From assembly GCA_964411565.1 (NCBI GenBank), contig CAYPLB010000004.1, positions 32,500-96,499 on the forward strand: DNA of 64,000 nucleotides, in the 5' to 3' direction. This document shows positions 9,299-59,728 of the stretch, piece by piece (the first letter of the stretch is position 1; each line of letters opens with the position of its first letter). A program made the translations under genes and the position numbers. The DNA comes from Candidatus Woesearchaeota archaeon. Its GTDB lineage: Archaea; Nanobdellota; Nanobdellia; SCGC-AAA011-G17; GW2011-AR17. Under the pieces are notes generated by a model. It saw only the letters and a list, made by a program, of their open reading frames with translations. It was not told the origin of the DNA and did not search any database.

Positions 9299-9683
9299 TA
9301 TCTTTTGTTGAATAAATAAGTATTTTATTTTGTTCTTTTAATTTTTTATCATTTGACCAAATTGGACAATTTAATTTCAAAGCTAATGCAAAATATAATA
9401 TATCATTTGGATCAGGTGAAATTTTTTCTGCTTTTTTTATAAAACAAGAATAATCTTCTTTAGGAATAATTATAATTATTTCTTTTAGAATATGAATAAT
9501 TTCAATAAATTCTTCTTTAGTTCTTTTTGTTTTCTTTAGAATATAATTTTCATATTTAAAAAATTCTTCAAGAATAAATTCAGGAGAATATAATTTTAGG
9601 TTATTCTTTAGCATTAATTCAGAAGTAAAACTATTTTTAATCAATGCAGAAAATAAAATATTTGCATCAATTACTAAGATCAT
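9249..9683 (-). CDS. PIN-domain ribonuclease toxin (VapC-like)
   Basis: LVIDANILFS, EEF, DPNDILYFALAL, IWSNDK acidic PIN tetrad. Confidence 0.9.
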   Translation of the reverse strand: MILVIDANILFSALIKNSFTSELMLKNNLKLYSPEFILEEFFKYENYILKKTKRTKEEFIEIIHILKEIIIIIPKEDYSCFIKKAEKISPDPNDILYFALALKLNCPIWSNDKKLKEQNKILIYSTKDIIDILQLQSFPDHKIQ

Positions 9684-12363: not shown

Positions 12364-12483
12364 TTTTTTCACCTCGTATATTCTAGTTATATAAACTAGT
12401 AAACATATATAGCCCTTGTTAGTATTTAAACTTTATGTTTTCTCGAGGGAAATCTTATATATTTCAAGAACTTGAGAGTTGTT

Positions 12484-21446: not shown

Positions 21447-21893
21447 ATGAAATGTCCATACTGCGCAAGCCCAGAAATCAAAGTTCTAGACAAAAGGAAT
21501 ACTGAAGAAGGGAAATCAATAAGAAGGCGAAGAGAGTGTTTGGGCTGTAACAAAAGATTTACAACATATGAAAGAGTTGAAGAATTTCCTGTTTATGTTA
21601 TAAAAAGAGATGGAAGAAAAGAACCCTTTTGTAGAGTTAAACTCAAAGAAGGTTTTGTAAGAGCCTTCGAAAAAAGACCAGTGACAATGGAAGTAATAGA
21701 TAATATTGTTGATGGATTACAGAGAAAAGTAAGAAACTATAAAGTAAATGAAATTGAAAGTAAAGTGTTGGGGAAATGGGTCTTAAGTTTGTTGAAAAAA
21801 ACTGATAAAATTGCTTATATCAGGTATGCTTCAATACACAAAGATATTGGAGATATACAAGAACTTGAAGCCGAAATACAAAAAATAATTTAG
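21447..21893 (+). CDS. nrdR: Transcriptional repressor NrdR
   Basis: MKCPYC...IRRRRECLGCNKRFTTYE Zn ribbon, ATP cone (VIKRDGRKEPF), AYIRYAS. Confidence 0.95.
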   Translation: MKCPYCASPEIKVLDKRNTEEGKSIRRRRECLGCNKRFTTYERVEEFPVYVIKRDGRKEPFCRVKLKEGFVRAFEKRPVTMEVIDNIVDGLQRKVRNYKVNEIESKVLGKWVLSLLKKTDKIAYIRYASIHKDIGDIQELEAEIQKII

Positions 21894-24900: not shown

Positions 24901-25164
24901 GCATTGGATAGCCAAGAAGAATTACAATGTAAGTATACTGGTGGAACAGTATTTCATTGTTTTATTGGAGAAAAAATAGATGATGTAGAAGCGTGTAAAA
25001 AATTAGTTAAGAGGATTGCACATACATATAGAATCCCTTACTATACAATAACTCCAACATTTAGTATTTGTCCAGAACATGGATACATTGCAGGAGAACA
25101 TCATGAATGTCCTTATGAAGCAGTTGTTAAAGTAAAAGGAGGTGAAAAAAATGAGCAAATGTGA
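21904..25164 (+). CDS. nrdD: Class III anaerobic ribonucleotide reductase large chain (ATP cone, intein-containing, lacks glycyl-radical C-terminus)
   Basis: VKKRDG ATP cone, HLHDL..GY|CAGWSL, QNEWAGAQA, RSMCCRL, GSIGVVTINL, EATPGE, YTGGT, TPTFSICPEHG. Confidence 0.93.
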   Translation: MVSHVKKRDGSIILFNKERIAEAIFSAMKATGVGNKEMAKELAQKVARIVEERNPYQIPSVEDIQDCIEDVLIKEGEQGIAKAFIIYRENRRRERESKKVLLDVEGTMKEYLDQIDWRVNENSNVGFSLGGLILYISGKITANYWLNNIYPAEIKNAHVNGDFHLHDLSMFSGYSFYRNEVIVVRDKKTKSPLVLSFEQLYKLTQSKVDHENGFEIKYTNEYEIFDEKGWTDLKRVLRHKTTKPLISLNTFNGKNLVVTNDHPFITLEDEKQIISCPGCEGNNVIKNRTNKIGKDYFKCKSCEQRFGLDKETLPNLSKRKEIKAEEVKLTNYALTPAFEIEQNFKDNLSVEDGWFVGLFIAEGYFKDKNLVFEMSDSREFRKLVNYLVYSEVDFNLNSNKSNSGMQMIQEGNNILYIKTISLSEELQEIISQIRPYAYNKNLPMNMLSIKSEVIGAMISGVIDGDGVIRNDDPWVSRANLRMTSKTLLSQIQFWLELEGINSSLLTIDGYGEREYKGLIIKPSKQLYSLTFYIPERKKKLFTECLKIDSSFKYSKRDSYKLKSHSHFRKIEAIENDDEYVYDITTETRTFNCNGMLAHNCAGWSLRQLLEEGFGGVYGKLQTKQPKHFDTVIGQMVNFLGTMQNEWAGAQALSSVDTYLAPYVRVDNMTYKQVKQQMQRLLFNIATPSRWGTQTPFINFTFDWTVPEDMREEKVIIAGQRQESKYKDYQKEMDMINRAFMECMMEGDADGRIFTFPIPTYNITKDFDWDSENSNMLFEMTSKYGIPYFQNFVNSELKPTDVRSMCCRLQLDVRELRNKTGGLFGSGENTGSIGVVTINLPRLGEVSKSREEFFRRLGILMDMGKNSLEIKRKVVTRYMEYGLLPFTKRYLENLDHHFSTIGLIGMNECCLNFLKKDMIEKEGRDFAIEVLDFMRSKLQQYQEETGHIYNLEATPGEGTSYRLARIDKMKYPNIITAGDEEPYYTNSSQLPVNATDDIFEALDSQEELQCKYTGGTVFHCFIGEKIDDVEACKKLVKRIAHTYRIPYYTITPTFSICPEHGYIAGEHHECPYEAVVKVKGGEKNEQM
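22426..23700 (+). mobile_element. Intein (425 aa) with LAGLIDADG endonuclease in NrdD
   Basis: Begins S (SFYRNEV), block B VTNDHPF, LAGLIDADG-like WFVGLFIAEG and MISGVIDGDG, ends VYDITT...GMLAHN, then extein Cys. Confidence 0.92.
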
Positions 25165-46128: not shown

Positions 46129-46806
46129 ATGTTAATCCATAAAAATATTGAAATTAGAGATTTAGGATTGTATTTGATTAAAGAGAAAGTTCTTGTTATT
46201 GGAGATATACATATTGGATATGAAGAAGAATTGAATATCAAAGGTTTGATGATTCCAAGATTTAATTTTAATGATTTGAAGGAAAGAATTTCTAAAATTT
46301 TAGATGATGTTGAAACTGTTGTGATTAATGGAGATATTAAACATAAATTTGGTGGAATTATGAACACAGAATGGAAAAATGTTAGAGAATTTTTAAAAAT
46401 ATTTGAAGATAAAAAAATTATTTTAGTGCAAGGGAATCATGATAGGATTTTGAAGCCAATAATAAAAGAAATGGAATTAGTTGATTATTATAAAGTTGGT
46501 GATGTTTTGATTTGTCATGGAGATGAAATTAAAGATGTAGATTCTAAAGTTGTAATTATTGGGCATGAGCACTGTGCAATTGGTTTGAAAGAAAATGTTA
46601 GATTTGAAAAATATAAATGTTTTATTAAAGGAAAATATAAAAGAAAAGTTTTGATTGCTATGCCTTCATATAATCTGCTAGCTATCGGAACTGATGTCCT
46701 TAGAGATGATAAACTATCTCCATACTTACAAGGAAACTTAGATAAGTTTGAAGTTTTTGTAGTTTCTGATAAAGTTTATGACTTTGGAAAATTGAAAGAT
46801 TTATAA
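46129..46806 (+). CDS. Lhr-associated metallophosphoesterase (calcineurin-like)
   Basis: GDIHIGYE, NGDIKH, GNHD, CHGD, GHEH, MPSYN. Confidence 0.88.
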   Translation: MLIHKNIEIRDLGLYLIKEKVLVIGDIHIGYEEELNIKGLMIPRFNFNDLKERISKILDDVETVVINGDIKHKFGGIMNTEWKNVREFLKIFEDKKIILVQGNHDRILKPIIKEMELVDYYKVGDVLICHGDEIKDVDSKVVIIGHEHCAIGLKENVRFEKYKCFIKGKYKRKVLIAMPSYNLLAIGTDVLRDDKLSPYLQGNLDKFEVFVVSDKVYDFGKLKDL

Positions 46807-47906: not shown

Positions 47907-50900
47907 TTAATTGAATTCTTTTTCGAATTCAAATTCTTCTTCTCTATTTCTATCATCTCTTTCTTCGTCTTCTCTACCTTCACCATCATCAAAAACAAGA
48001 CCCATTAATTCCATTGCTCTACCCATATCACCAAATGAACTAACTCTTATGTCTCCAGTAGCTATTGCTGCAGCAAACATTGCACCTTGTTTTCCTCTAT
48101 TAATTGTCTCTTGTATAACTTCACCAAAACCCCTTTCAATCCAATCAGGATGCTCTAACCTAAGTTCTTTCTCTGTAGTAGAAATCATATTGTAAATGAA
48201 ATCAAATTCTATTGTAACTGAAACATCTTCCTGACCAGCAAAGTCTTCTCCAGGTGTAATTTGTAATAAATCTGCTTCTGAAACACTTACACCTACAACA
48301 TAAATATCTTCTCCTTCATCAACAAATCTAACAACACCATCTGTTGGACCATAGTCTTCTAAATAAAATTGGATATCTTCTATTTTTATTGGATCATATT
48401 TATAATCCTCAGGATTTTTTCTCTCAGGACCAGGAATCTCACCAGCAGCCATTGCATCTGCAAATTCTTGTTTTAAGAATTCTTCAGGAGGGAAAATCCA
48501 AACTTCCATATAAGGAGTATATATATCTAAATCAAATCGGTCAACATAGCCCCACTCTTCATAGATTTTAATTTCACCTGTTGAAGATTCATCTTTATAA
48601 GAAAGAGAGATAGGATTTACTTCTGGGAATTCCTGTCCTAAACATTGTGAAGACATAGCTAATTGTCTAGTGTTGTCAACTAAAGCAACCCAATAAATTT
48701 CATAAACACCAGAAATATATTTTTCCCATTCCTCAGAATTTGGATTTACATAGTTTGTAAAATACCAAGCAAATAATTCTTCATTTAAGGAAGCTTCTAA
48801 TTCTTCTCTTTGAAGTAAAGCATTTTCTAATTCCCATTCACACCAAGAGTTATGCCCATGACCATCCCTATATTGATTAATTTCATCAAAAGGTTCTCCC
48901 CAAGAATCAAAGTTTAAGTAACTATCAACTTGGCCATCAGTATGTTTAACACATCCTCCTGAGAATGAAACTGAACCTTTATTTTCTGTCCAGGAACCAC
49001 CTTGGAAACAACCATAATTTAATACAACTGAAGGATTGTTTTGATCACAAATAGGTGCTGAACAATCATCATTGGAAGTACAAGCTTGACACTGTTCTGT
49101 TGATTCACAAGTCCACCAAACACCATCACAATTATAGTAACCTTCTTCACATTGACAACTTCCACCTATCTCATCACAGTATTGGTTTTCTCCACAACCT
49201 CCTCCACAAATTTCTCTTTCACCACCACAAGTAGGATCTGCAGATTCACAACCATCTTCATCATAACCTCTACCATTGTTACTGTTACAATCAGTATAAC
49301 CATAGTCACAATAACACTCACCTTCAAATTTGTCACATTTTTGGTTTGCGTTACAATCATTATCTGATTCACATAAATCTCCTTCTTGGTAAAAATTTCC
49401 AGTTATTTTGAAAAAGTAACCAGTAATTGCTGAGAACATTCCTGTAACTTCATTTTCTACTGGAGTTTCTTCCTCAACTACTTCTTCAACTTGTTCTTCA
49501 ACAATCTCTTCCTCAACTACTTCCTCAACTACTTCCTCAACTTCTTCTTCAACTACTTCTTCAACTTGTTCATCTTCAGTAGGTAAATGTTCGGGTTCAA
49601 CTTCAGGAGCTTTAGGTCCTTCACCACAATCTTCTATACAATAAGATTCTTCACCTGAATCACAAATACCATCACCACAAATTATATCATAAAAACAATC
49701 ATCAAGACAAACTCCAGGTTCACCTTCTTCACAAATATTGTTTCCACAAACAGAAGAAGGTTCGCAATCATCATAACAAGTATCTTCTTCACCAAAGTCA
49801 CAAATACCATCACCACAATAAGATTCAATTTCTAAATCAACACAAACCCCATTAACACAAACATCACTAGGATTTGTACAGTCAGATGCTAAAGTACATG
49901 TTTCTCCTGTTGAATCATCATCAATACAATAACTATCTACACATATTTTTCCATATTCACAATCATCATCTATTTCACATTCATTTTGTAAAGTACAAAG
50001 ACCATATTGGCAGAAAGAACCTTCAGAACAATCTTCATCAAATTCACAAATATCTACACATTCGCCTTCGATAAGTTTTTGATTTTCTTCACAAATATTT
50101 ACAATACCTTCATCTTGACATTCACCTTCATAACAAATTAATGAAACACCACAAGATTGTAATCTACAATCAACTAAATCACTACAATCAACTAAATAAT
50201 CTTCATCGTTATCAACCCCATCATCACAAATTTCATCTGCTCCTCCACAAGAATCTGTAGATTCACAAGTTGCATCACCATCACAGTCATAGTAACCAGC
50301 TTTACAGACACAAATATCATCCTGTAACATTTGGTTTTCTCCACAGATAGAAGATTCGTCACAAGGAACTGTTTGTTTTACTTCTTCACCATTGAATTGA
50401 CAAGTATATATTGTACAAGGATAAGGTTGGGATACTCCATCACAAAAATAAGTTGTGTCTTCACAAGGATAATCTTGTTTTCCACCACCACAATAAAAAT
50501 TTACATTTTGATCACATAAACTTTTACATACTTCTTGTTGAGACCCAGTTTCAGAAATTTGTTCACAAACAGAATAACATTGTGCATTGTAAGGAGTCAT
50601 ACAATCAGAACAAGTTTGACATTCATCAATACAAGCTTCGGGATCTTCTGTGTACATTAATGTACATTCTTCACAAGAAGAACATTCTTCAGAACAATCA
50701 TCTTTGGAATGTTGAGAATTTTCACATTCAACACAAGCAGAACAAAAGTCTTGAGATTTACAATTGTTTACACATTCATTACAACCTGAACTTTCACAAA
50801 TGGAATCACAATCTTGAGTATCCCAATCACAATCCCAACATTCATCACAAGTGGATTTACAATTATCACCATAACAAGACCAACAACTTTCCTCACACAC

Positions 50901-52259
50901 AGGTTCACAAACTCTTCCACAATCATTAGCACAATCAGGATCATCACAATCTGTTACAGTATCTCCATCATTGTCTACACCATCATCACAAATTTCATCA
51001 CCACCTAAAGCATTTGTACATGAACCTTCAATACAAGCATCTTGTGTTATGTCACATTTTTCATAAGAAATTTCTCTACACCAAGCATTTTGATTAGTAA
51101 TAGTATTTTCAACTAATCTATTTTCCCATCTCATTTCAGTAACAGTTTCTTTATCATAACCATATTCTGAAAGAACATTTAAAATTCTTGATAACACATC
51201 ATTATAATTATCAATATTTCCATCTTCATGCCAAACGTTTTTTTCTAACATATGTCCAATAACAAAATTTAACTCTTCTACAACAGCATAAACTGAAGAC
51301 ATAGAACCTCTATCTTCATCAACTTGATTAGCATTTTTATAAATATCTTGTAACAAGTGTCTAAGTCTAGTTTCTAGTTCGTCAAGAGTGTAATCTTTAA
51401 ATTCATATTCTTCATAATTTAATTCATAACCATAATAATCACCTTCTTCTGGAAACATTCCTCCGAAGTATTCGTCTCTTCCCCAAGCATTTATCCAAGG
51501 ATGTTCGCAACCATTGTCACAATTTGGAGTTTGTAGTTCAATTATAAAATTTAAATTATCTCCCTCATAGATGTAGGAATTATAACGATCTCTTTCTTCT
51601 TCATATACAGCTCCAGAAAATAAGTTTGAAATTGAATCTTCACAATTATCTCTATTTTCTTCCATGTAAGAATCTAAAACACTTTGGTACTCTTGCATTC
51701 TATTTGCAACTTCTTCAGCTGAGACTTGACCATTATAATAAGCTGTTGCAATACTTTTTACATCTGAAACCATTTCAGAAGGATCTAAATCAAAATTATT
51801 TTTGAAGATTACTCTAAAATCAGTCCAATAAAAAACAGTTTGAGTTTCTTCACCAGTTAATACATGGGGCCAAGCATTAAAGGTGATTTTTATTTTGTGT
51901 CCATCATAAAGGACTTTTTCAAAAGAAGGTAAGGCTTCATCAAGAAATACATCTCTTTCTTCGTTCATACTCCAAGCATGTTTAGTATAATGTTGAGGCC
52001 GACCAAAGAAAGATTCAGCAGCTTCGGCAGTTATTCCTCCAGGACCATGTTCTTCAAATTTAAACTCACCAAGGTTTTGATTAATGTCATTTTTTATTAT
52101 TGTTGACAACATCATAAGTTGTGCATAGTTTAAATTTCCTCTTTCATACTCTAATGCAGTATCAGTGAGAACTTCGATTTGTTCATTTACTGTTTCTTGT
52201 GAAGAAACAAATGGTACGACCAACAATATTAGTATAATAAATAATAGCCCCTTTTTCAT
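47907..52259 (-). CDS. Large secreted Cys-rich acidic surface protein
   Basis: Signal peptide; CDDGVDND repeats, EGF-like and CGDGICD repeats, Glu-rich linker. Confidence 0.85.
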   Translation of the reverse strand: MKKGLLFIILILLVVPFVSSQETVNEQIEVLTDTALEYERGNLNYAQLMMLSTIIKNDINQNLGEFKFEEHGPGGITAEAAESFFGRPQHYTKHAWSMNEERDVFLDEALPSFEKVLYDGHKIKITFNAWPHVLTGEETQTVFYWTDFRVIFKNNFDLDPSEMVSDVKSIATAYYNGQVSAEEVANRMQEYQSVLDSYMEENRDNCEDSISNLFSGAVYEEERDRYNSYIYEGDNLNFIIELQTPNCDNGCEHPWINAWGRDEYFGGMFPEEGDYYGYELNYEEYEFKDYTLDELETRLRHLLQDIYKNANQVDEDRGSMSSVYAVVEELNFVIGHMLEKNVWHEDGNIDNYNDVLSRILNVLSEYGYDKETVTEMRWENRLVENTITNQNAWCREISYEKCDITQDACIEGSCTNALGGDEICDDGVDNDGDTVTDCDDPDCANDCGRVCEPVCEESCWSCYGDNCKSTCDECWDCDWDTQDCDSICESSGCNECVNNCKSQDFCSACVECENSQHSKDDCSEECSSCEECTLMYTEDPEACIDECQTCSDCMTPYNAQCYSVCEQISETGSQQEVCKSLCDQNVNFYCGGGKQDYPCEDTTYFCDGVSQPYPCTIYTCQFNGEEVKQTVPCDESSICGENQMLQDDICVCKAGYYDCDGDATCESTDSCGGADEICDDGVDNDEDYLVDCSDLVDCRLQSCGVSLICYEGECQDEGIVNICEENQKLIEGECVDICEFDEDCSEGSFCQYGLCTLQNECEIDDDCEYGKICVDSYCIDDDSTGETCTLASDCTNPSDVCVNGVCVDLEIESYCGDGICDFGEEDTCYDDCEPSSVCGNNICEEGEPGVCLDDCFYDIICGDGICDSGEESYCIEDCGEGPKAPEVEPEHLPTEDEQVEEVVEEEVEEVVEEVVEEEIVEEQVEEVVEEETPVENEVTGMFSAITGYFFKITGNFYQEGDLCESDNDCNANQKCDKFEGECYCDYGYTDCNSNNGRGYDEDGCESADPTCGGEREICGGGCGENQYCDEIGGSCQCEEGYYNCDGVWWTCESTEQCQACTSNDDCSAPICDQNNPSVVLNYGCFQGGSWTENKGSVSFSGGCVKHTDGQVDSYLNFDSWGEPFDEINQYRDGHGHNSWCEWELENALLQREELEASLNEELFAWYFTNYVNPNSEEWEKYISGVYEIYWVALVDNTRQLAMSSQCLGQEFPEVNPISLSYKDESSTGEIKIYEEWGYVDRFDLDIYTPYMEVWIFPPEEFLKQEFADAMAAGEIPGPERKNPEDYKYDPIKIEDIQFYLEDYGPTDGVVRFVDEGEDIYVVGVSVSEADLLQITPGEDFAGQEDVSVTIEFDFIYNMISTTEKELRLEHPDWIERGFGEVIQETINRGKQGAMFAAAIATGDIRVSSFGDMGRAMELMGLVFDDGEGREDEERDDRNREEEFEFEKEFN

Positions 52260-52291
52260 GTTGCTTATAAGGGTATATAATATTTATAAGT

Positions 52292-53401
52292 TTATAGATT
52301 TTTTAAGAATTTTTGAACTTCTTTTTTTGCCTTGATTCTTTTCTTTTGATGTTCTTCTAAAAATTTAGAAATCTTTTTAGCAGTATACTTTTTTAGTTCA
52401 CCAGAAAGTAGTTTTCCAGATTTGTAATCATTAAAAATTTTATTTAATTTTTTATCATCTTCTTCTAAACCATAAAGTAACATTTGAAAAGCAACGTCAA
52501 CATCAGGATTACCACCTTTTTTTCTATGTTCTTCTAAAGTTGCTCTGCCACCTGAGAAAGCATACTTCATTATTTTTCTTGTTGCTTCTTTTGGAGAATC
52601 TGTTAATGCAATAAAACTTGTTGGATCTGAAGAAGACATTTTATCTCCTTTTAATCCAGGTAAAAACTTATGATAAGTTGAACTCAATTGCATGAACTTG
52701 AAGAGTTTTATTCTATGTGAAAGATCTCTTGCTAATCTTATGTGAGGATCCTGATCTGATCCAACAGGAATTACTACAGGAATTACACCTTCAAATTCTT
52801 TTAATTGAGGATGAAGCATATCAGCAGCTTGTAAAAGTGCAGAAGCCATTTTTCCAGGAGAAATGTCTCCATAAATTGCCTTGAATTCATTGTAAGTTGC
52901 ATGTCTTGATAACATATTAGCTAAACTGTAATAAGCATTTGATTTTTTTCCATCTTTAGATCTTGAGGATTGAAAATAAAAGTCACATTTTTTTAAATCT
53001 AAACCTAAAGCAACATAATTTGTTAAGTATTGTTCTATAGCAGTTTTTCTTAATTCATCAAAATTTGAGTTTCTAGAATTGTAAGCTTCAATATCAGCTA
53101 CAGTTAAATAAATTTTTGCTCCAAGCTTTTGATAAAAAATAATTTGATCTGCAACCATTTTATGACCAAAGTGGAATCTACCTGAAGGCATAAGACCAGT
53201 CATCATAACAAATGGTTTTTTTTCTTTAATTGATTTTAATATTCTATCAAAGTCTCTATGTGCAAAAATAAGTTTTCTTCTAAATAAAACATTGTCATCA
53301 AATTCTTTTGGAAGTTTTTTTAAATGTTTTAATCCAAACTTTTTTATCAATTTATCATAATCAATATTTCCCTTAACTTCCCATGGTGTTACTGTTGACA
53401 T
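52292..53401 (-). CDS. trpS: Tryptophanyl-tRNA synthetase (archaeal type)
   Basis: VTPWEV, GLMPSGRFHFGH, DQDPH, KMSSS, AFSGG. Confidence 0.96.
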   Translation of the reverse strand: MSTVTPWEVKGNIDYDKLIKKFGLKHLKKLPKEFDDNVLFRRKLIFAHRDFDRILKSIKEKKPFVMMTGLMPSGRFHFGHKMVADQIIFYQKLGAKIYLTVADIEAYNSRNSNFDELRKTAIEQYLTNYVALGLDLKKCDFYFQSSRSKDGKKSNAYYSLANMLSRHATYNEFKAIYGDISPGKMASALLQAADMLHPQLKEFEGVIPVVIPVGSDQDPHIRLARDLSHRIKLFKFMQLSSTYHKFLPGLKGDKMSSSDPTSFIALTDSPKEATRKIMKYAFSGGRATLEEHRKKGGNPDVDVAFQMLLYGLEEDDKKLNKIFNDYKSGKLLSGELKKYTAKKISKFLEEHQKKRIKAKKEVQKFLKNL

Positions 53402-53440
53402 GTAAAGTTAAGTAAAGAAAGAAGTTATTAAAGATTTTGG

Positions 53441-54253
53441 TTAGTCATAAGAAAATTTACGATAAACAGTGTTTGTAGGTAATTTTTCATCTGTAGCAAT
53501 TAAAGCATTTCTTCCAGCATTCTTTGCAACATAAAGATTATTATCTGCTTTAGCTAATAAATTATCAATTTGCTCTTTAGATTTGTCAAGATTAAGATCT
53601 GATGGAATGAACCAATATAAACCAGCACTAAAACTAATATTCTTTACATCAGGAACAGAATATTTCCAAGATAAAGAATCTTCATTAATGTCTTGACCAA
53701 ATTGATGAATTCTTTCAATAGAACCAATGAAAGTTGGATCATATAAACCTAAAACAAATTCTTCACCACCAAATCTAGCTACCAAGTCTGAATCTCTAAG
53801 TCTTTTTCTAAAAAAATCTCCAAACTGAATTAAAGCTTCGTCACCAACTTTGTGACCATAAGTATCATTGAAAAATTTAAAATGATCAATATCAAGAAAA
53901 GTTAAAGCCATAGGAGATTTTTTTCTTAAAGCAATTGATAATAAAGATTCCATTTGTTGATAAAAACCTCTTCTGTTAGGAAGTCCAGTTAATTCATCAA
54001 TAGTTGAAGTTATTCTTAGTCTATCAATTTGTTCTTGCATCTTTTTATGTTCTAAATTTCTTTTTTCATTTAAAGCAAGTAATAAATCAAAATTTGAAGG
54101 ATCTCTTTGCTCTAGAATAGTAGAACAAGTTAAATCTAAAAATAGAGGTAAAGAATCAGGATCAATACCCTCTGAAATAGCATCAAAAGTTTCTATACTA
54201 GGGTCTTCTAAAAATACATTTAAATAAGCTCCTAGTTCAATTCTTGGTGTCAT
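53441..54253 (-). CDS. GGDEF-domain diguanylate cyclase
   Basis: DELTGLPNRR, DIDHFKFFNDTYGHKVGD, RDSD I-site, RFGGEEF, ADNNLYVAKNAGRN. Confidence 0.93.
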   Translation of the reverse strand: MTPRIELGAYLNVFLEDPSIETFDAISEGIDPDSLPLFLDLTCSTILEQRDPSNFDLLLALNEKRNLEHKKMQEQIDRLRITSTIDELTGLPNRRGFYQQMESLLSIALRKKSPMALTFLDIDHFKFFNDTYGHKVGDEALIQFGDFFRKRLRDSDLVARFGGEEFVLGLYDPTFIGSIERIHQFGQDINEDSLSWKYSVPDVKNISFSAGLYWFIPSDLNLDKSKEQIDNLLAKADNNLYVAKNAGRNALIATDEKLPTNTVYRKFSYD

Positions 54254-54387
54254 CTTAATCTTGGAAACTAAAGGATTTATTTATAAAAGTTTCTATTAGA
54301 AAATATATGAAATTTATCAGGAAATTCAGTGTGGACAGGACAAGGGTGCGCGTGAAGTTTAAATAGGTAAAAATTAATTTATAATTA

Positions 54388-55800
54388 ATGAGAAAAAAAT
54401 CAATAATATCAATAAAAGAAGAAGATTATATAATCAAAGTTAATCAAAATTTTCTCAATAATTTAATTGAATCTGCAATAGCAAAAACAGGTAAAGTTTC
54501 AAAATTAAGTGAAATATTGATAAAAATATATAAACTTAAGAGATATGATCAAAAAAGTTTGTCAGATAATTTAAGAAAATGGCAAAAAAATAGAGATATA
54601 GGCTTAAATTATTATTTGGTAATTGGAGATTTTCTTCAGGAAGAGAAAAATAAGTTATATTCAAAGATTAATTATGTTAAATTAAGACAAACTAGAAATG
54701 GCTTAAAATTAAAATTTCCTTTTGAAATTACTCCTGATTGGTGTTATTTATCTGAAGCTATAAAAGTTGAAGGCACATTAAATCGAAAAAGAGTAATATT
54801 TGAGAATACTGATACAGCATTAACTAAGAAAGTAAAAGAAAAATTGATTAATATAGGGATTGAAAAAGAAAAAATAAGAGAAAGTTTACATATCCGAATT
54901 CAAGTTCCAAAAAAATTTGAAGATAAAAATTTAAAAATTTTTAATGAGATTAATAAAAAAAAGGTAAATAATTTTTATTCTCGAATATTAAAGTTAAAAA
55001 GAGGAAATAAAAAATCAATTATTTTTTCTTTAAGTCATTTTGAGTATAATAAAAAATTAACTTTTAAGGTTTATCATAAAAATAAGTTTTTACTTCAAAA
55101 TGATATATTTATTCCAAAACAAGGGAAAATATTGTTTTTCAACTCTCTAAAAGATGAGAGATATAAGAAAGGATGTGTATCATTAAGGATAGAAGTTGGA
55201 AATAAAACATTATCTTATATTTTGAATGATTTTTTTAAAATTCCTTATGGAAAGAAAACGAGATCAATATATATTCCAACAAAAATTAAAGAACTTAACA
55301 AAGATTGTCTTAGAAATTTAATTTCAATAGTTATTGATTCAGAAGCAGGATTTTCAAATAATATGGCTATTTGTTCTCTTAGTAAAAAATATCTTTTAGA
55401 TTTTCAAGAAATATTATTGAGATTCAATATTACTTCTAAAATTTCTGGAAACTTATTAAAGATTTATGGAAAGAGAAATTTAATCAAAATAAAAGAGAAT
55501 TTTGAGATTTTTTCAAAAAATAAGGCTGATAAATTAGAACAATTAATAGTAAAAGGAGATAAATCTCCTAAAGGAATGTCTTTGTCTTTATATTTGCAGA
55601 GTTTGAATAAACTAAAAGTTGCAACTTGGATAGAAATTAGAAATAATGCTAATAGATCAGGTAATAGTTCAAGAAAATATAGAGATAAACTCCTAGAAAA
55701 AAAGCTAATAAGAGAGGTAAAATTAAAAAGACCTAGGACTTATGAGATAACTAAGCAAGGACAAAACTTTTTAAATGAGAACGAAATTTACTGGTTATAA
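54388..55800 (+). CDS. Free-standing LAGLIDADG endonuclease-like protein with C-terminal wHTH
   Basis: YLSEAIKVEG and LISIVIDSEAG LAGLIDADG-like helices, IPYGKK, C-terminal YEITKQG wing; very Lys/Asn-rich. Confidence 0.7.
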   Translation: MRKKSIISIKEEDYIIKVNQNFLNNLIESAIAKTGKVSKLSEILIKIYKLKRYDQKSLSDNLRKWQKNRDIGLNYYLVIGDFLQEEKNKLYSKINYVKLRQTRNGLKLKFPFEITPDWCYLSEAIKVEGTLNRKRVIFENTDTALTKKVKEKLINIGIEKEKIRESLHIRIQVPKKFEDKNLKIFNEINKKKVNNFYSRILKLKRGNKKSIIFSLSHFEYNKKLTFKVYHKNKFLLQNDIFIPKQGKILFFNSLKDERYKKGCVSLRIEVGNKTLSYILNDFFKIPYGKKTRSIYIPTKIKELNKDCLRNLISIVIDSEAGFSNNMAICSLSKKYLLDFQEILLRFNITSKISGNLLKIYGKRNLIKIKENFEIFSKNKADKLEQLIVKGDKSPKGMSLSLYLQSLNKLKVATWIEIRNNANRSGNSSRKYRDKLLEKKLIREVKLKRPRTYEITKQGQNFLNENEIYWL

Positions 55801-55802
55801 GA

Positions 55803-58193
55803 ATGGAAATGTCTAAGAAATATAATGCGGATTTAACAGAAAAAAAATGGAATGAATATTGGGAAAAGGAGAAGATCTATAAATTTAATCCAAAAAGTAA
55901 AAAACCAGTATTTTCAATAGATGTTCCACCACCATATGCTTCAGCAGGACATTTACATATTGGACATGCTTTACATTATACTCAATTTGAAATTATTGCA
56001 AGACAAAGAAGAATGGCTGGATTTAATGTTCATTTTGCACCTTGTTTTGATGATAATGGTTTACCAACAGAAAAATATGTTGAAAATAAGTTAGGAATAT
56101 CAAAAAAAGATGTTACTAAAGAAGAATTTAGAAAAATTTGTATGAGAGAAATTGCAAAAGTAGAGAAAGAATATTCTGAAAGAGTTTTTAAAAAATTAGG
56201 ACATAGTTATGATTGGGATTTGTTATATACAACTATTAGTAATGAAGCACAAAAAGTTGCACAAACTTCATTTGTAAAATTAGTGAAGCAAAATGATGCA
56301 TATAGGGCTGAAGAACCAACTATTTGGTGTACATATCATCAAACAGCATTAGCTCAAGCTGAAGTTGAAGACTTGAAGAGAAAAACAAAGTTAAATTATA
56401 TTAATTTTGAGTTAGAAAATGGAAAAAATATTGAAATTGCAACAACTAGACCAGAATTATTAGGAGCATGTGTAGCAGTTTTTGTTCATCCTGAAGATAA
56501 AAGGTATAAAGGTATTATTGGAAAAGATGTAATTGTTCCTTTGTTTAATAAAAAAGTAAAAATTTTAACTGATGAAACAGTTGATATGGACTTTGGTTCA
56601 GCAATATTAATGGTATGTAGTTGGGGAGATACAGCAGATATTGAAAAATGGAAAAAACATAAGTTAGATTTAGTCTTAGTTGTTAATGATGATGGAACTT
56701 TAAATGAAAATGCAGGTAAGTATAAAGGTATGACTTTGAAGGAAGGAAGAAAAGCAATTATTGAAGATTTAGATAAAGAAGGAAAATTAATAAAACAAGA
56801 AGAAATAGAACAAACTGTTGGAGCTTGTTGGAGATGTGATACTCCTGTTGAATATATTCACTCTAAACAATGGTTTATTAAAACATTAGCACATAAAAAA
56901 AGTCTTATTGAAAGAGGAAGAGAAGTAAATTGGTACCCTGAATTTCTTAGAACTAGATATGAAGATTGGGTGAATAATCTTGCATGGGATTGGTGTATCT
57001 CTAGACAAAGATATTTTGGAGTCCCTATACCTGTTTGGTATTGTAAAAAATGTGATGAGACTATTTTGCCTAATGAAAAAGATTTACCTCTAGATCCTGA
57101 ACAAGTAAAATGTAAGAAAAAATGTAAATGTGGTTCTGAGGAATTTGAAGCAGATCATGATGTTTTTGATACTTGGATGACATCTTCTATGACACCTGAA
57201 ATTGCAGTAAGATGGTTAGACAAACCAAAAGAATTTGATAAAATGTTTCCAACAACATTACGAGCACAATCTTCAGATATAATTAGAACTTGGTCTTTTT
57301 ATACAATCTTAAAATCAGATTTACATTTTAAAAAAATCCCATGGAAAGATATTGCAATAGGAACTTTTGTTTTAGGACCAGATAAAAAAGGAATGAGTAA
57401 GTCAAAGGGAAATGTAGTTTGGACAGATGAAATATTAGATAAATATAGCATAGATGCTTTTAGGTATTGGGTAGGATCAGCAAGATGGGGGACAGATATT
57501 CCTTTTAAGGAACAAGATCTAGTTGCTGGACAAAAATTTATAACTAAATTATGGAATGCTTCAAAGTTTAGTATAGGTATGCTTAAAGGATACGAAGATA
57601 AAAATTTAGAGTTGGAAGCTTTTGATAAATGGCTACTTTCAAAATTAAATAATTTAGTAAAAGAGAATAATTCATACTTTGAAAAATATAATACAGGAGA
57701 TGCAAAAAGAAAAACAGAATATTTTTTTTGGCATACTTTCTGCGATAATTATCTTGAAATAATTAAAGATAGAATGTATAATCCTGATAAAAGAGGAGAA
57801 AATGCAAAGACTAGTGCTCAGAAAACATTGAGTAATTCAATTTTAGTTATGTTAAAGTTATTTGCACCAATTACTCCTTACATTACTGAAGAGATATATC
57901 AATTGTATTTTGCAAAGAAAGAAAAAATGAAATCTGTGCACATTAGTTCATGGCCAGAATATAATTCTAAGTTTATAGATGAAAAAGCTGAAGAAATTGG
58001 AGATAAGTTAGTTGAAGTTATTGCATTAGTAAGAAAGAAAAAATCAGAAAATAATTTATCACTAAAAGAATCAGTAAAAGAAATTGTTTTAGATTTAAGT
58101 GAAGAGGAAGTAAAACCTTTCCTTGAAGATTTAAAATCTGTTACAAAAGCTAAAAAAATTAGTTTTGGTAAAAAAGTTAGTGTAAAACTGTAA
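55803..58193 (+). CDS. valS: Valyl-tRNA synthetase
   Basis: PPPYASAGHLHIGH, DDNGLPTE, ATTRPE, DWCISRQR, DTWMTS, GMSKSKGN. Confidence 0.96.
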   Translation: MEMSKKYNADLTEKKWNEYWEKEKIYKFNPKSKKPVFSIDVPPPYASAGHLHIGHALHYTQFEIIARQRRMAGFNVHFAPCFDDNGLPTEKYVENKLGISKKDVTKEEFRKICMREIAKVEKEYSERVFKKLGHSYDWDLLYTTISNEAQKVAQTSFVKLVKQNDAYRAEEPTIWCTYHQTALAQAEVEDLKRKTKLNYINFELENGKNIEIATTRPELLGACVAVFVHPEDKRYKGIIGKDVIVPLFNKKVKILTDETVDMDFGSAILMVCSWGDTADIEKWKKHKLDLVLVVNDDGTLNENAGKYKGMTLKEGRKAIIEDLDKEGKLIKQEEIEQTVGACWRCDTPVEYIHSKQWFIKTLAHKKSLIERGREVNWYPEFLRTRYEDWVNNLAWDWCISRQRYFGVPIPVWYCKKCDETILPNEKDLPLDPEQVKCKKKCKCGSEEFEADHDVFDTWMTSSMTPEIAVRWLDKPKEFDKMFPTTLRAQSSDIIRTWSFYTILKSDLHFKKIPWKDIAIGTFVLGPDKKGMSKSKGNVVWTDEILDKYSIDAFRYWVGSARWGTDIPFKEQDLVAGQKFITKLWNASKFSIGMLKGYEDKNLELEAFDKWLLSKLNNLVKENNSYFEKYNTGDAKRKTEYFFWHTFCDNYLEIIKDRMYNPDKRGENAKTSAQKTLSNSILVMLKLFAPITPYITEEIYQLYFAKKEKMKSVHISSWPEYNSKFIDEKAEEIGDKLVEVIALVRKKKSENNLSLKESVKEIVLDLSEEEVKPFLEDLKSVTKAKKISFGKKVSVKL

Positions 58194-58237
58194 CAACAAT
58201 ATTTTTAAAAGATAAAGAGAGAAGAATATTATATAAT

Positions 58238-59728
58238 ATGGCTGAAAAAACCAAAGAAAAACAGAAATTGAAAAGATTTGTTAGGAATCTTGAAAAGATT
58301 AGAGGTAGACATACTGAATTAGTTTCTGTTTATGTGCCAGCAGGTTATGATCTAAATAAAATTATTCAACATTTACAACAAGAACAAGGAACAGCTTCTA
58401 ATATTAAAGATAAAACAACTCAAACCCATGTTGTTGATTCGTTAGAAAAAATGATTAGACATTTGAGAACTTTTAAGAAAACTCCAAAAAATGGTTTAGC
58501 TCTTTTTTCAGGAAATGTTTCTGATAGAGAAGGAAAGACAGATATCCAAGTTTTTAGTATTGAGCCACCACAACCAATGAAAATGAGATTGTATAGGTGT
58601 GATCAAAGATTTGTTCTTGATGAATTAAAAGGAATGTTTGAAATTAAAGAATGTTATGGAATTATTGTACTTGATAAAAGAGATGCTGATGTAGGATTAC
58701 TAAAAGGAACAACTATTATTGAATTGAAAAGTATGCATTCAGCTGTACCTGGAAAAACTAAAGCTGGAGGACAATGTTTGCATCCAGAAAGTTCTGTACA
58801 TTTGGCTGATGGACAATATATTCCTATTGAAGAGATTCAAGAAGGAGATGAAGTTATAAGTTATGATTTTAATACACAAGAACTGAGTAGTTCAAAAGTT
58901 TTGAAGAAATGGGAAGAGAAAAAAAATAAGTTGTATAAAATTACAGCTGGAGAAAGTGTTATTGTTAGTTCAGGAGATCATATCTTTTTCTTAAGTGATA
59001 AAAAAGAAATTGCTGCTGAAGAATTAAAAGAAGGAATGGAATTGTTTAATGAAAAAGGTTTGGGTGTTGTTATTCAAAGTATTATTGTAGAAGAAAAAGA
59101 GATACCTTTAATTGATATTGAAGTTGAAAAAAAGAATTTTGTTGTTGAAGGAATTGTTGTTCATAATTCAGCTCAAAGGTTTGCAAGAATAAGAGAAGAA
59201 GCAGCAAAAGATTTTTTTGGAAGAGTTAGTGATGCAGCAAATAAAGCATTTTTAGGTCTGAAAGATATGAAAGGAATATTAGTTGGTGGACCAGGAATGA
59301 CAAAGAATACATTTGTTGATAAAGGACATCTTAATGAGCAATTAAAAAGAAAAGTAATTTCGGTACAAGATTTAAGTTATACTGGAAGTTTTGGAATGCA
59401 AGAATTAGTTGAGAAAAGTAGTGATATTTTAGCAGATGAAGCAATTGTTACAGAAAGAAAAATAATGTCAGAATTTTTTAGATTATTATCTCAAGAAGGA
59501 AATAAAGTTGCTTATGGTGAATCTGAAGTTGATAAGGCTCTAGAAATGGGAGCAGTTGATAAATTGTTGTTATCTGAATCTCTAGATGATGAAATGATTG
59601 AAAGATACGAAGATAAAGCAGAAGAGACTGGAGCTGAAGTTGTAATTGTTAGTACTGATACTTCAGAAGGTGCACAATTAAAAGATATTGGCAGAATTGC
59701 TGCTATTTTGAGATTTGCAATTAGTTAA
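58238..59728 (+). CDS. prf1: Archaeal peptide chain release factor 1, intein-containing
   Basis: RGRHTELVS, TASNIKD (NIKS-like), YRCD, GKTKAGGQ|SAQRF. Confidence 0.95.
   Translation: MAEKTKEKQKLKRFVRNLEKIRGRHTELVSVYVPAGYDLNKIIQHLQQEQGTASNIKDKTTQTHVVDSLEKMIRHLRTFKKTPKNGLALFSGNVSDREGKTDIQVFSIEPPQPMKMRLYRCDQRFVLDELKGMFEIKECYGIIVLDKRDADVGLLKGTTIIELKSMHSAVPGKTKAGGQCLHPESSVHLADGQYIPIEEIQEGDEVISYDFNTQELSSSKVLKKWEEKKNKLYKITAGESVIVSSGDHIFFLSDKKEIAAEELKEGMELFNEKGLGVVIQSIIVEEKEIPLIDIEVEKKNFVVEGIVVHNSAQRFARIREEAAKDFFGRVSDAANKAFLGLKDMKGILVGGPGMTKNTFVDKGHLNEQLKRKVISVQDLSYTGSFGMQELVEKSSDILADEAIVTERKIMSEFFRLLSQEGNKVAYGESEVDKALEMGAVDKLLLSESLDDEMIERYEDKAEETGAEVVIVSTDTSEGAQLKDIGRIAAILRFAIS
58775..59167 (+). 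mobile_element. Mini-intein (131 aa, no endonuclease) in aRF1
   Basis: CLHPESSVHLADG (block A), SGDHIF (block B), LIDIEV (block F), GIVVHN followed by Ser. Confidence 0.93.

What the first reader, a model, noticed from the sequence alone, without database searches (positions are those of the whole stretch)
53441..54253. Apparently active diguanylate cyclase in an archaeal genome: possible c-di-GMP signalling
All catalytic features are present: the DxLTGLxNRR wide turn after a coiled coil, metal-binding DID, NDxxGHxxGD, GGEEF, the RxxD inhibitory site and the terminal K..GRN. c-di-GMP signalling is regarded as essentially bacterial. The gene has an archaeal BRE/TATA (reverse-strand AAACTTTTATAAA near 54285) and lies between trpS and valS, which argues for a domesticated gene rather than contamination. 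A processive-type GT2 operon, the classical kind of c-di-GMP target, starts 9 kb away; that link is speculative. A host-directed signal is another possibility.
Basis: partly seen in the sequence, partly recalled or inferred. Interest (0 to 1): 0.8.

Follow-up and report, generated by a model that had tools for sequence, protein, structure and literature searches.

The report
Bacterial-type diguanylate cyclase in a DPANN archaeon
A small marine archaeon of the Woesearchaeota/Nanoarchaeota group carries, as a stably inherited gene with its own archaeal promoter, an apparently working copy of the enzyme that bacteria use to make the signal molecule c-di-GMP, which makes it testable whether any archaeon uses this "bacterial" messenger.

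Summary
ORF 53441..54253 (-) encodes a 270-aa soluble protein with a full-length GGDEF domain (Pfam E=4e-36). Every catalytic, substrate-binding and I-site residue is present.

The gene is archaeal, not contamination:
- The same valS-GGDEF-trpS arrangement occurs in four lineages and in dozens of independent assemblies.
- One 148-kb contig carries both this gene and the archaeal exosome superoperon.
- GC content matches the neighbouring genes.
- The promoter matches this genome's own BRE/TATA consensus, and a 27-nt promoter block is conserved across lineages.

The catalytic half of the domain is under strong purifying selection (dN/dS 0.11). The rest of the protein evolves fast. The 84-aa N-terminal helical domain has no relatives outside this family among 1.84 billion representative proteins. 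Eighty-three trpS loci of related archaea lack the gene, and one shows an "empty" valS<->trpS site.

No EAL, HD-GYP, PilZ or MshEN domain and no c-di-GMP riboswitch was found in the DNA I could check. The nearby GT2 has no PilZ domain. No RNA evidence exists. So a cyclase-competent archaeal gene is well supported, but a signalling pathway is not shown.

By-product: a 4.4-kb highly divergent tract covers GGDEF and valS and is centred on an inserted LAGLIDADG-like ORF.

The parts
53441..54253 (-). Gene for a 270-aa soluble GGDEF protein, a putative diguanylate cyclase
   Evidence: ORF. Pfam PF00990 E=4.3e-36. TIGR00254 E=9e-38. No transmembrane segment: maximum Kyte-Doolittle 19-residue mean is 0.87. 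AF2 model has mean pLDDT 94.2.
54101..54253 (-). Residues 1-51: three short helices forming a lineage-specific N-terminal domain of unknown ligand or partner
   Evidence: AF2 helices 4-16, 20-29 and 32-49. A profile of residues 1-84 searched against 1.84e9 representative proteins found only its own family. dN/dS about 0.45.
54002..54100 (-). Residues 52-84: long stalk helix leading into the GGDEF domain, the presumed dimerisation element
   Evidence: AF2 helix 52-84. Among the best structural matches are coiled-coil-GGDEF proteins: DgcB 6ttr and the GCN4-WspR fusion 3i5c. Dimerisation itself is inferred, not shown.
53507..54001 (-). Residues 85-249: GGDEF catalytic domain. It holds the wide turn D86-R95, metal site D121/E164, transition-state K126, guanine readers N129/D138, I-site R153xxD156, GGEEF 162-166 and phosphate binders K244/R248.
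   Evidence: Invariant or >=90% conserved columns in a 79-sequence alignment. Mapped to PleD numbering by constant motif spacing (offset 206), with residue roles taken from PMC12943098. The core, residues 82-167 of the sister protein (window 85-170), has dN/dS 0.11 at dS 0.79.
53441..53506 (-). Residues 250-270 plus the stop codon: C-terminal beta-hairpin extension, poorly conserved
   Evidence: AF2 strands 250-255 and 258-266. Only 10% of positions are identical in all three orthologues.
54277..54303 (-). Promoter block TTTTCTAATAGAAACTTTTATAAATAA: a BRE-like AGAAAC followed by the TATA box TTTATAAA, which ends 26 nt before the ATG. This predicts a leaderless or very short-leader mRNA.
   Evidence: The 27-nt block is conserved in the window, L002 and L083 (one C/T difference, in L083), although the coding DNA is only 67-75% identical. 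The same BRE-like+TATA element sits 30-44 nt before the start codon of 17 of 56 window genes, against 1.4% per gene by chance (P about 2e-18).
52292..53401 (-). trpS (archaeal-type tryptophan--tRNA ligase), the downstream neighbour with its own promoter in the 39-nt spacer. It anchors the synteny.
   Evidence: NCBIfam PRK12285 family. 93% identical to the sister species' trpS. Adjacent to GGDEF in all four lineages.
54388..55800 (+). 470-aa LAGLIDADG-like ORF inserted between GGDEF and valS. It is absent in the sister species. It is context, not part of the cyclase.
   Evidence: Pfam LAGLIDADG_3 at 24.0 bits against a cut-off of 22.5, a weak hit. Absent in L001-L008. Split into two ORFs in one population contig, L012. 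Centre of the divergence island.
55803..58193 (+). valS, the second synteny anchor. Together with the GGDEF gene it lies in the divergent tract.
   Evidence: NCBIfam PRK13208 at 1013 bits. Only 52% aa identity to the sister's valS, while flanking genes are 77-93% identical.

Best explanation
The gene encodes a bona fide bacterial-type diguanylate cyclase. An ancestor of a small marine clade of Woesearchaeota-like DPANN archaea acquired it. It sits between the divergently transcribed valS and trpS genes and has been inherited vertically since then.

Proposed mechanism:
- Two copies pair through the long stalk helix (residues 52-84). This step is inferred.
- Each GGDEF domain binds one GTP. N129 and D138 read the guanine. 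K244, R248 and the backbone around F125/K126 hold the phosphates.
- Mg2+ is held by D121 and E164 of the GGEEF motif.
- The two GTPs are condensed head-to-tail into c-di-GMP.
- The product binds the RxxD I-site (R153, D156) and shuts the enzyme off, which caps the c-di-GMP level.
- The small orphan N-terminal helical domain probably sets activity through a partner protein or ligant-free packing on the stalk, in the manner of sensor-less stalk cyclases such as SiaD. This is inferred.

Shown here: the gene is real, archaeal, carries a host-type promoter, keeps all catalytic residues and has a catalytic core under purifying selection. Inferred: enzyme activity, dimerisation, feedback inhibition, and any downstream target.
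For: Family and residues:
- Pfam and TIGRFAM GGDEF hits lie far above their cut-offs.
- All 53 PDB sequence matches carry a GGDEF domain; the best are active cyclases (DgcR, WspR, PleD, DgcZ), the weakest include GGDEF-EAL proteins such as DosP and FimX.
- D86, L88, N93, R94, D121, D123, K126, N129, D130, H134, G137, D138, R160, G162, G163, E165, F166, D237 and K244 are invariant. R153, D156, E164, G247 and R248 are >=90% conserved. This holds across 79 homologues including the three archaeal orthologues.
- Residue roles follow the PleD literature.

Fold:
- AF2 mean pLDDT 94. The top Foldseek hits are WspR, DgcZ, GCN4-WspR and DgcB coiled-coil-GGDEF.

Selection:
- For the matched pair L002/L083, dS is equal for valS (0.61) and GGDEF (0.58).
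- The catalytic core has dN/dS 0.11, against 0.45-0.8 for the N-terminal domain and the C-terminal half of the domain.

Archaeal and native:
- eRF1, ABCE1, deoxyhypusine synthase, ATP-dependent DNA ligase, TrmB, and the exosome superoperon with RpoK lie on the same 148-kb contig.
- The nearest named ABCE1 and TrpRS relatives are Nanoarchaeota and Woesearchaeota.
- GC is 0.283, against 0.28-0.30 for the neighbours.
- The promoter matches the genome consensus and is conserved between lineages.
- Identical contigs from four runs in two studies span the junctions.
- valS-GGDEF-trpS synteny is present in the window species, the sister species, a Tara lineage and a fourth lineage with a 317-aa GGDEF protein.
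Against: - No biochemical data exist.
- No transcripts were detectable. The metatranscriptomes from the same studies contain nothing from this organism at all, not even valS or trpS.
- No phosphodiesterase (EAL, HD-GYP) or receptor domain (PilZ, MshEN) was found in about 84 kb, and no c-di-GMP riboswitch in the 64-kb window. The rest of the genome could not be read.
- Overall the protein evolves much faster than its neighbours (dN 0.25 against 0.035 for valS). That is compatible with a dispensable accessory gene.
- c-di-GMP has never been detected in an archaeon (PMC10249747).
Confidence: 0.7

Rival explanations
1. The enzyme is active, but its product is not an intracellular messenger of the archaeon. 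Instead c-di-GMP is released or transferred at the cell-cell interface to manipulate a host or neighbouring bacteria. This would be a symbiont effector.
For: No turnover or receptor domain was found in the about 84 kb examined. DPANN archaea are generally episymbionts; this is established knowledge and was not tested here. The periphery of the protein evolves fast, as is often seen for interaction-related genes.
Against: The protein has no signal peptide or transmembrane segment. No export system is linked to the gene. Known DPANN hosts are mostly archaea, which are not known to sense c-di-GMP. The conserved I-site suggests that intracellular concentration is being controlled.
Confidence: 0.1
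2. The GGDEF domain is retained for a non-catalytic role, such as a GTP or c-di-GMP binding module or a scaffold, as in degenerate GGDEF proteins like PelD, CC3396 or LapD.
For: Overall substitution rate is high (dN/dS 0.44) and there is no visible partner pathway. The only earlier archaeal cases in the literature include an inactivated GGDEF domain (PMC5847659).
Against: Degenerate GGDEF proteins lose the GG[DE]EF motif or the metal and base-binding residues. Here every one is kept in three lineages that are only 53-64% identical, and the catalytic core has dN/dS 0.11.
Confidence: 0.1
3. The enzyme makes another dinucleotide, such as cGAMP or c-di-AMP as Hypr GGDEF enzymes do, or a linear pppGpG, rather than c-di-GMP.
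For: GGDEF enzymes with altered specificity exist (PMC12943098). The product was not measured.
Against: The specificity switch of Hypr enzymes is a Ser at the PleD D344 position. Here that position is Asp (D138), invariant in all 79 aligned sequences, and N129 is also kept.
Confidence: 0.06
4. The gene is bacterial contamination or an assembly or binning chimera.
For: The nearest homologues outside the family are all bacterial, at <=42% identity. Earlier reviews warned that archaeal GGDEF hits might be contamination.
Against: - Identical junction-spanning contigs come from four runs in two studies.
- At least 24 contigs were read for each of two species, from ENA, JGI, NCBI and Logan, all with the same neighbours.
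- A single 148-kb contig also carries the archaeal exosome superoperon.
- GC content and promoter are host-like.
- The position is conserved in four lineages.
Confidence: 0.01

Closest known systems
Canonical bacterial GGDEF diguanylate cyclases with I-site feedback (PleD, WspR, DgcR, DgcB)
   Same: Same domain, with all active-site, substrate-specificity and RxxD I-site residues. Same fold. A helical stalk runs directly into the DxLTGLxNRR wide turn, as in WspR, DgcB and DgcR.
   Different: There is no REC, PAS, GAF, HAMP or membrane sensor domain. The host is an archaeon. Identity to any bacterial protein is only 30-42%, over the domain alone. It also has an extra C-terminal beta-hairpin.
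SiaD of Pseudomonas aeruginosa (small sensor-less stalk cyclase activated by its partner SiaC)
   Same: Similar size (252 against 270 aa) and layout: short N-terminal helices, a long stalk helix, then an I-site GGDEF domain. It is the second-best NCBIfam model. 7e6g is among the Foldseek hits. The SiaD mechanism is described in PMC8457831.
   Different: The score of 125.7 bits is far below the equivalog cut-off of 290. The N-terminal regions are unrelated in sequence and superpose poorly (rmsd about 25 A). No family resembling the SiaABC partners appears in the Pfam tables of the neighbourhood.
Previously reported archaeal GGDEF proteins (Methanocella arvoryzae CAJ37382; REC-GGDEF of 'Ca. Micrarchaeum acidiphilum')
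   Same: Sporadic GGDEF domains in archaeal genomes, probably acquired from bacteria (PMC5847659).
   Different: The Micrarchaeum proteins are described as inactivated GGDEF domains, and the authors left open that bacterial-type proteins in unfinished archaeal genomes may be contamination. The present family has an intact active site and its archaeal context is verified. I did not compare the sequences directly.
Dictyostelium DgcA (a GGDEF cyclase outside Bacteria)
   Same: A precedent for a functional, horizontally acquired GGDEF cyclase used by a non-bacterial organism without canonical EAL or PilZ partners.
   Different: It is eukaryotic and its product is a secreted morphogen. No sequence comparison was made here.

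Membership tests
GGDEF diguanylate cyclase (Pfam PF00990 / TIGR00254) | Full-length match to the family profile above the curated cut-off | tested here: met
   PF00990 at 124.6 bits against 23.8, profile positions 2-160 of 161. TIGR00254 at 129.6 against 37.4.
GGDEF diguanylate cyclase (Pfam PF00990 / TIGR00254) | Intact GG[D/E]EF signature with the metal-binding and catalytic acidic residues (PleD E370/E371, D327) | tested here: met
   G162-G-E164-E165-F166 and D121. They are conserved in all three archaeal orthologues and in 79 homologues.
GGDEF diguanylate cyclase (Pfam PF00990 / TIGR00254) | GTP recognition: guanine readers (PleD N335, D344), phosphate binders (K442, R446) and transition-state Lys (K332) | tested here: met
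   N129, D138, K244, R248 and K126. Mapped by constant motif spacing (offset 206) to the PleD numbering given in PMC12943098.
GGDEF diguanylate cyclase (Pfam PF00990 / TIGR00254) | Palm-like GGDEF fold | tested here: met
   AF2 mean pLDDT 94.2. Foldseek probability 1.00 to more than 50 cyclase chains, TM (target-normalised) up to 0.90, rmsd 2.2-3 A over the domain.
GGDEF diguanylate cyclase (Pfam PF00990 / TIGR00254) | Allosteric I-site RxxD five residues upstream of GG[D/E]EF (defines the feedback-inhibited subclass) | tested here: met
   R153-D-S-D156, then five residues, then GGEEF. The sister lineages have RGSD.
GGDEF diguanylate cyclase (Pfam PF00990 / TIGR00254) | Homodimerisation that brings two GTP-loaded domains together | not testable with these tools
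   Only a monomer could be modelled. A 33-residue stalk helix precedes the domain. Dimerisation is inferred by analogy with WspR, DgcB and SiaD.
GGDEF diguanylate cyclase (Pfam PF00990 / TIGR00254) | Synthesis of c-di-GMP from 2 GTP | not testable with these tools
   This needs an enzyme assay or an in vivo reporter.
Hypr GGDEF (cGAMP-producing subclass) | Ser instead of Asp at the PleD D344 position | tested here: not met
   Asp138 is invariant. The criterion is taken from PMC12943098.
SiaD equivalog (NF038266) | Score above the equivalog cut-off, plus SiaABC partner genes | tested here: not met
   125.7 bits against a cut-off of 290. No family resembling the SiaABC partners appears in the Pfam tables of about 84 kb.
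Complete c-di-GMP signalling module | A c-di-GMP phosphodiesterase (EAL or HD-GYP) in the same genome | tested here: inconclusive
   None among the called genes of the window plus 10 kb on each side. A conserved Metallophos phosphoesterase (46129..46806) is the only nearby phosphodiesterase-like gene, and nothing links it to c-di-GMP.
Complete c-di-GMP signalling module | A receptor: PilZ, MshEN, a degenerate GGDEF/EAL domain, or a c-di-GMP-I/II riboswitch | tested here: inconclusive
   No such Pfam hit at E<=0.1 in the unannotated window proteins, nor in the precomputed tables. No second GGDEF ORF in the window. Rfam at gathering threshold found only one tRNA. The whole genome was not searched.
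c-di-GMP-activated processive GT2 synthase (BcsA/Alg44 type) | A PilZ domain fused to, or encoded next to, the GT2 | tested here: not met
   The 412-aa GT2 matches only GT2 and chitin-synthase-like models. Its operon partners (496, 465, 220 and 459 aa) have no PilZ even at E<=1.

The most novel reading that the evidence does not exclude
A clade of DPANN archaea runs a genuine c-di-GMP circuit built on non-canonical parts. It would have a bacterial-type cyclase with an orphan regulatory domain, but receptors and turnover enzymes unrelated to EAL, HD-GYP or PilZ. The circuit could control attachment or exopolysaccharide functions needed for the episymbiotic lifestyle. Alternatively the cell might deliver c-di-GMP to its partner. 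Either case would be the first c-di-GMP signalling system in Archaea.
Probability: 0.25. Interest if true: 0.85.

Novelty: new member of a known kind. Interest (0 to 1): 0.6.

Why it matters
c-di-GMP is treated as an essentially bacterial messenger. Reviews state that it has never been detected in archaea. They also say that GGDEF hits in archaeal contigs still need confirmation or may be contamination (PMC10249747, PMC10086821, PMC5847659).

This locus gives a clean, contamination-proof case of an archaeal gene that is catalytically intact, shaped by selection and driven by a native promoter. The protein is small and soluble, so it is easy to express.

That turns the question "does any archaeon make or use c-di-GMP?" into a direct experiment. 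The small DPANN proteome also makes a search for new kinds of c-di-GMP receptor tractable.

The limits are plain. The enzyme itself is an ordinary member of a very well-known family. The clade that carries it is small. No pathway is visible yet.

Tried and rejected
- **Genome-contig scan with the protein.** It returned only bacterial GGDEF loci. The organism's own genome is not among the GTDB representatives searched, so no organism title was obtained. I inferred taxonomy from ABCE1 and TrpRS neighbours instead.
- **Metagenome-contig scan with the N-terminal alignment.** 600 pattern matches, none confirmed.
- **Viral origin.** Neither the N-terminal peptides nor the conserved promoter block occur in IMG/VR. 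Phage GGDEF families do exist in PHROGs, but they match only the common domain.
- **Defence-system role.** No PADLOC hit for the cyclase, the LAGLIDADG-like ORF or the 1450-aa protein.
- **Whole-gene dN/dS between the window and the sister species.** Uninformative, because valS gives the same ratio (0.57), so dS is saturated or the tract was exchanged. I replaced it with the L002/L083 pair, where dS is matched to valS.
- **Expression.** Six metatranscriptome runs from the same studies were listed with none of the gene's sampled words. The four I laid on 18 kb around the gene gave only short, partial matches, so there is no information either way.
- **The 317-aa orthologue of the fourth lineage.** Its DNA was not retrievable, so its sequence could not be compared.
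- **Bacterial donor.** It cannot be named. The best hits are spread over Desulfovibrionales, Methylococcales-like, Marinobacter, KSB1 and others at 36-42% identity.
- **CZB-like zinc sensor, as in DgcZ.** Rejected for the N-terminal domain. There are no conserved His/Cys residues among the three orthologues, and the DgcZ superposition is poor (rmsd about 10 A).
- **LAGLIDADG-like ORF.** It has no PDB sequence relative and no PHROG hit. Its assignment rests on one marginal Pfam hit.
Full report
**1.

The ORF at 53441..54253 on the minus strand encodes 270 aa. Pfam GGDEF matches residues 84-249 over almost the whole profile (124.6 bits against a cut-off of 23.8). TIGR00254 gives 129.6 bits. All 53 sequence matches in the PDB carry a GGDEF domain; the best are cyclases such as DgcR, WspR, PleD, DgcZ and DgcB.

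- D86ELTGLPNRR95
- D121-I-D123-H-F-K126
- N129-D-T-Y-G-H134-x-x-G-D138
- R153-D-S-D156, five residues before G162GEEF166
- K244-N-A-G-R248-N

From residue 88 to 166 the spacing is identical to PleD with an offset of 206. Residue roles come from PMC12943098. On that basis:

| Window residue | PleD residue | Role |
|---|---|---|
| D121, E164 | D327, E370 | metal ligands |
| K126 | K332 | transition-state lysine |
| N129, D138 | N335, D344 | guanine readers |
| K244, R248 | K442, R446 | phosphate binders |
| R153, D156 | R359, D362 | I-site |

This mapping is my inference from motif spacing, not a structural alignment. In a 79-sequence alignment these positions are invariant or at least 90% conserved. 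Position 138 is Asp, not the Ser that marks the cGAMP-producing Hypr enzymes.

**2. Architecture**

AlphaFold2, run with that alignment, gives a confident model (mean pLDDT 94.2, pTM 0.83). It shows:
- three short helices (4-16, 20-29, 32-49)
- one long helix (52-84) that runs straight into the wide turn of the GGDEF domain
- the canonical domain
- an extra C-terminal beta-hairpin (250-266)

There is no hydrophobic segment, so the protein is soluble. Foldseek returns only diguanylate cyclases at the top. The best whole-chain fits are to constructs consisting of a coiled coil plus a GGDEF domain: DgcB 6ttr with target-normalised TM 0.83-0.88, and GCN4-WspR 3i5c.

I searched a profile of residues 1-84 against 1.84 billion representative proteins. 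It found only the family itself, a 60-aa fragment of it, and one weak hit with nine repeated matched stretches. The N-terminal domain is therefore lineage-specific.

The closest architectural analogue is SiaD. That is a sensor-less cyclase of similar size whose stalk is the platform for activation by a partner protein. However, the SiaD equivalog score is not met, and no family resembling its partners appears in the Pfam tables of the neighbourhood.

**3. The genome is archaeal and the gene belongs to it**

The window and its flanks encode:
- eRF1 (with an intein), ABCE1/RLI, deoxyhypusine synthase, ATP-dependent DNA ligase, TrmB, TruD and Lhr
- just upstream on the same 147,824-bp JGI contig, the archaeal exosome superoperon: Rpp14, proteasome alpha, SBDS, Rrp4, Rrp41, Rrp42 and RpoK

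The closest named ABCE1 and TrpRS relatives are annotated Nanoarchaeota, Woesearchaeota or Nanoarchaeia. The samples are marine.

The exact protein was read on 24 contigs from ENA, JGI and Logan, always with the same neighbours. Contigs from four runs in two studies cover 50000-59000. Single contigs of 17,007 and 10,828 bp span the junctions without a single difference, and smaller contigs bridge the trpS/GGDEF and GGDEF/ORF470 boundaries.

The gene's GC content (0.283) equals that of trpS and valS.

This genome has a clear promoter consensus: an A-rich BRE-like element followed by (C/T)TTTATAAA about 30 nt before start codons. It is present at 17 of 56 genes, against 1.4% expected per gene (P about 2e-18). 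The GGDEF gene carries AGAAACTTTTATAAATA, with the TATA box ending 26 nt before the ATG. The 27-nt block TTTTCTAATAGAAACTYTTATAAATAA is conserved in three lineages whose coding sequences are only 67-75% identical.

Contamination or chimerism can be dismissed.

**4. Distribution and history**

Among 5.8 billion protein clusters, only two full-length relatives appeared in the 120 best hits: P0002 (265 aa, 57% identity by BLASTP, annotated "GGDEF domain-containing protein [archaeon]") and P0003 (264 aa, 52%). Everything else listed is bacterial and matches only the domain at <=42% identity.
- P0002 sits in valS-GGDEF-trpS synteny on contigs of up to 429 kb, from three NCBI MAGs and several ENA assemblies.
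- P0003, on a Tara contig, is likewise flanked by valS and trpS.
- A fourth, more distant lineage (trpS 79% identical) has ScpB-HAD-eRF1-valS-GGDEF(317 aa)-trpS-radical SAM-Metallophos-Lhr on a 128-kb contig. No DNA was available for it.

By contrast, two other relatives with trpS 79-81% identical lack the gene. An HMM scan of 83 trpS loci of related archaea (685 kb) found no GGDEF ORF, and the positive controls worked. One of these loci, L104 (trpS 74% identical), has valS and trpS directly back-to-back with a spacer of about 77 nt. It looks like an empty site.

The simplest reading is a single insertion of a bacterial GGDEF gene between valS and trpS in the ancestor of a small marine clade, followed by vertical descent. 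A loss in L104 cannot be excluded. The bacterial donor cannot be named.

**5. Selection**

Between L002 and L083, synonymous divergence is the same for valS (dS 0.61) and GGDEF (0.58). Non-synonymous divergence is 0.035 for valS and 0.25 for GGDEF. Within the GGDEF gene:

| Region (L002 numbering) | dN/dS |
|---|---|
| catalytic core, residues 82-167 (wide turn to GGEEF) | 0.11 |
| N-terminal domain | 0.45 |
| stalk | 0.58 |
| residues 168-247 | 0.81 |

A strongly constrained active-site half inside an otherwise fast-evolving protein is what an enzyme kept for its chemistry would show. It argues against a decaying or purely structural domain.

**6. What is missing**

I checked the called genes of the window plus 10 kb on either side (about 84 kb). 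None has an EAL, HD-GYP, PilZ or MshEN hit in the precomputed tables. Twenty unannotated or small proteins also gave no such hit when scanned directly at E<=0.1. The window holds no second GGDEF ORF and no c-di-GMP riboswitch at Rfam gathering thresholds.

The GT2 that begins at 63391 (412 aa) is a membrane GT2 with a weak chitin-synthase-like match. It sits in an operon of unknown proteins, and neither it nor its partners has a PilZ domain. The GT2 link therefore remains pure proximity.

Metatranscriptomes from the same studies contain nothing from this organism, so expression is untested. The remainder of the genome could not be read with the tools available.

**7. Interpretation**

Most likely (about 0.7) this is a working, product-inhibited diguanylate cyclase that dimerises through its stalk. 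Its orphan N-terminal helices provide regulation through a partner or intramolecular packing.

Whether the archaeon reads the signal, and with what, is open. The rivals are set out in their own sections: host-directed product, non-catalytic role, different product, and contamination. The last is effectively excluded.

**8. Comparison with the literature**

- Reviews state that c-di-GMP has not been detected in archaea and that cyclases are almost exclusively bacterial (PMC10249747).
- GGDEF proteins in archaeal contigs "need to be confirmed" (PMC10086821).
- The only GGDEF domain in a finished archaeal genome was that of Methanocella arvoryzae, and other cases were possible contamination or inactivated domains (PMC5847659).
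- A cold-seep MAG survey counted c-di-GMP-related genes in 6% of archaeal MAGs without verification (PMC12781772).

The protein is already annotated in GenBank as a GGDEF-domain protein, but I found no paper that analyses it. It is a new and well-verified member of a known enzyme family in an unexpected domain of life. It is not a new kind of system.

**9. By-product: a divergent tract**

Against the sister species, nucleotide identity is 85-94% on both sides. It drops to 55-75% from about 53,400 (the stop codon of the GGDEF gene) to about 57,800 (the 3' part of valS). Amino-acid identities are:

| Gene | aa identity to sister |
|---|---|
| trpS | 93% |
| eRF1 | 86% |
| GGDEF | 54% |
| valS | 52% |

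The tract is centred on the 470-aa LAGLIDADG-like ORF. That ORF is absent from the sister species and is split in one population contig.

A tract import from a distant relative that also had the valS-GGDEF pair would explain this. It may have been driven by a homing-endonuclease-like gene with co-conversion of the flanks. The endonuclease assignment is weak (24 bits).

Noticed in passing
window 53400-57800: Divergence island. Against the sister species (L002), nucleotide identity is 55-75% here but 85-94% on both sides. GGDEF is 54% and valS 52% identical at the protein level, against trpS at 93% and eRF1 at 86%. The island is centred on an inserted 470-aa ORF. This suggests import of a tract from a distant relative, possibly with homing-endonuclease-type co-conversion.
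   Followed up: partly
window 54388-55800 (+): A 470-aa ORF with a marginal LAGLIDADG_3 hit, a weak match to the PRK14845 (aIF-2) model over residues 161-395, and a C-terminal Sso10a-like winged helix. It is absent from the sister species. In population contig L012 it is split into 312- and 176-aa ORFs, as expected for a decaying selfish element. It has no PDB or PHROG relative.
   Followed up: partly
window 58238-59728 (+) and 21904-25164 (+): Inteins inside eRF1 (Hint and intein-splicing domains within a 496-aa protein) and inside the anaerobic ribonucleotide reductase NrdD (1086 aa, intein plus a faint LAGLIDADG hit).
   Followed up: no
window 47907-52259 (-): A 1450-aa acidic, extremely Cys-rich protein with an N-terminal signal-like segment and a DUF7107 repeat. 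Local GC is 0.32-0.345 against about 0.28 elsewhere. It is 80% identical in the sister species but absent between trpS and the radical-SAM gene in the fourth lineage. It may be a surface adhesin.
   Followed up: no
window 21447-21893 (+) and 12472-13245 (+): Other bacterial-type genes in this archaeal genome: an NrdR-like repressor (Zn ribbon plus ATP-cone) upstream of nrdD, and a prolipoprotein diacylglyceryl transferase (LGT) homologue.
   Followed up: no
whole window, upstream of start codons: Genome-wide promoter consensus: an A-rich BRE-like element followed by (C/T)TTTATAAA, with the TATA octamer starting about 30 nt before the ATG. This implies mostly leaderless mRNAs. 17 of 56 genes have it, against 1.4% per gene by chance.
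   Followed up: yes
window 9249-9683 (-) and the 74-aa ORF just upstream of it: A PIN-domain and ribbon-helix-helix pair, a typical VapBC-like toxin-antitoxin module.
   Followed up: no
L104 (CEPX01189314.1) 1-1744: In a related archaeon (trpS 74% identical), valS and trpS are divergently adjacent with a spacer of about 77 nt and no GGDEF gene. This is a candidate empty site for the insertion.
   Followed up: partly
window 46129-46806 (+): A calcineurin-like metallophosphoesterase (Metallophos) is conserved in the radical SAM-Metallophos-Lhr block next to trpS in all four GGDEF-bearing lineages. It is the only phosphodiesterase-like gene nearby. No evidence links it to c-di-GMP.
   Followed up: no
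window 52452/54859 and 54725/56152: read laying reported 'joints' that skip 2406 and 1426 bases in single contigs. Only 21-24 matching letters lie on the shorter side, and where the joint is reported at 43 (run X2) the local depth is about 12. I read these as chance matches of short AT-rich words from other organisms' contigs, not deletion variants.
   Followed up: no
L013 1469-2733: In one population contig, trpS is called as two ORFs of 106 and 304 aa. This is either a frameshift variant or an assembly error in an essential gene.
   Followed up: no
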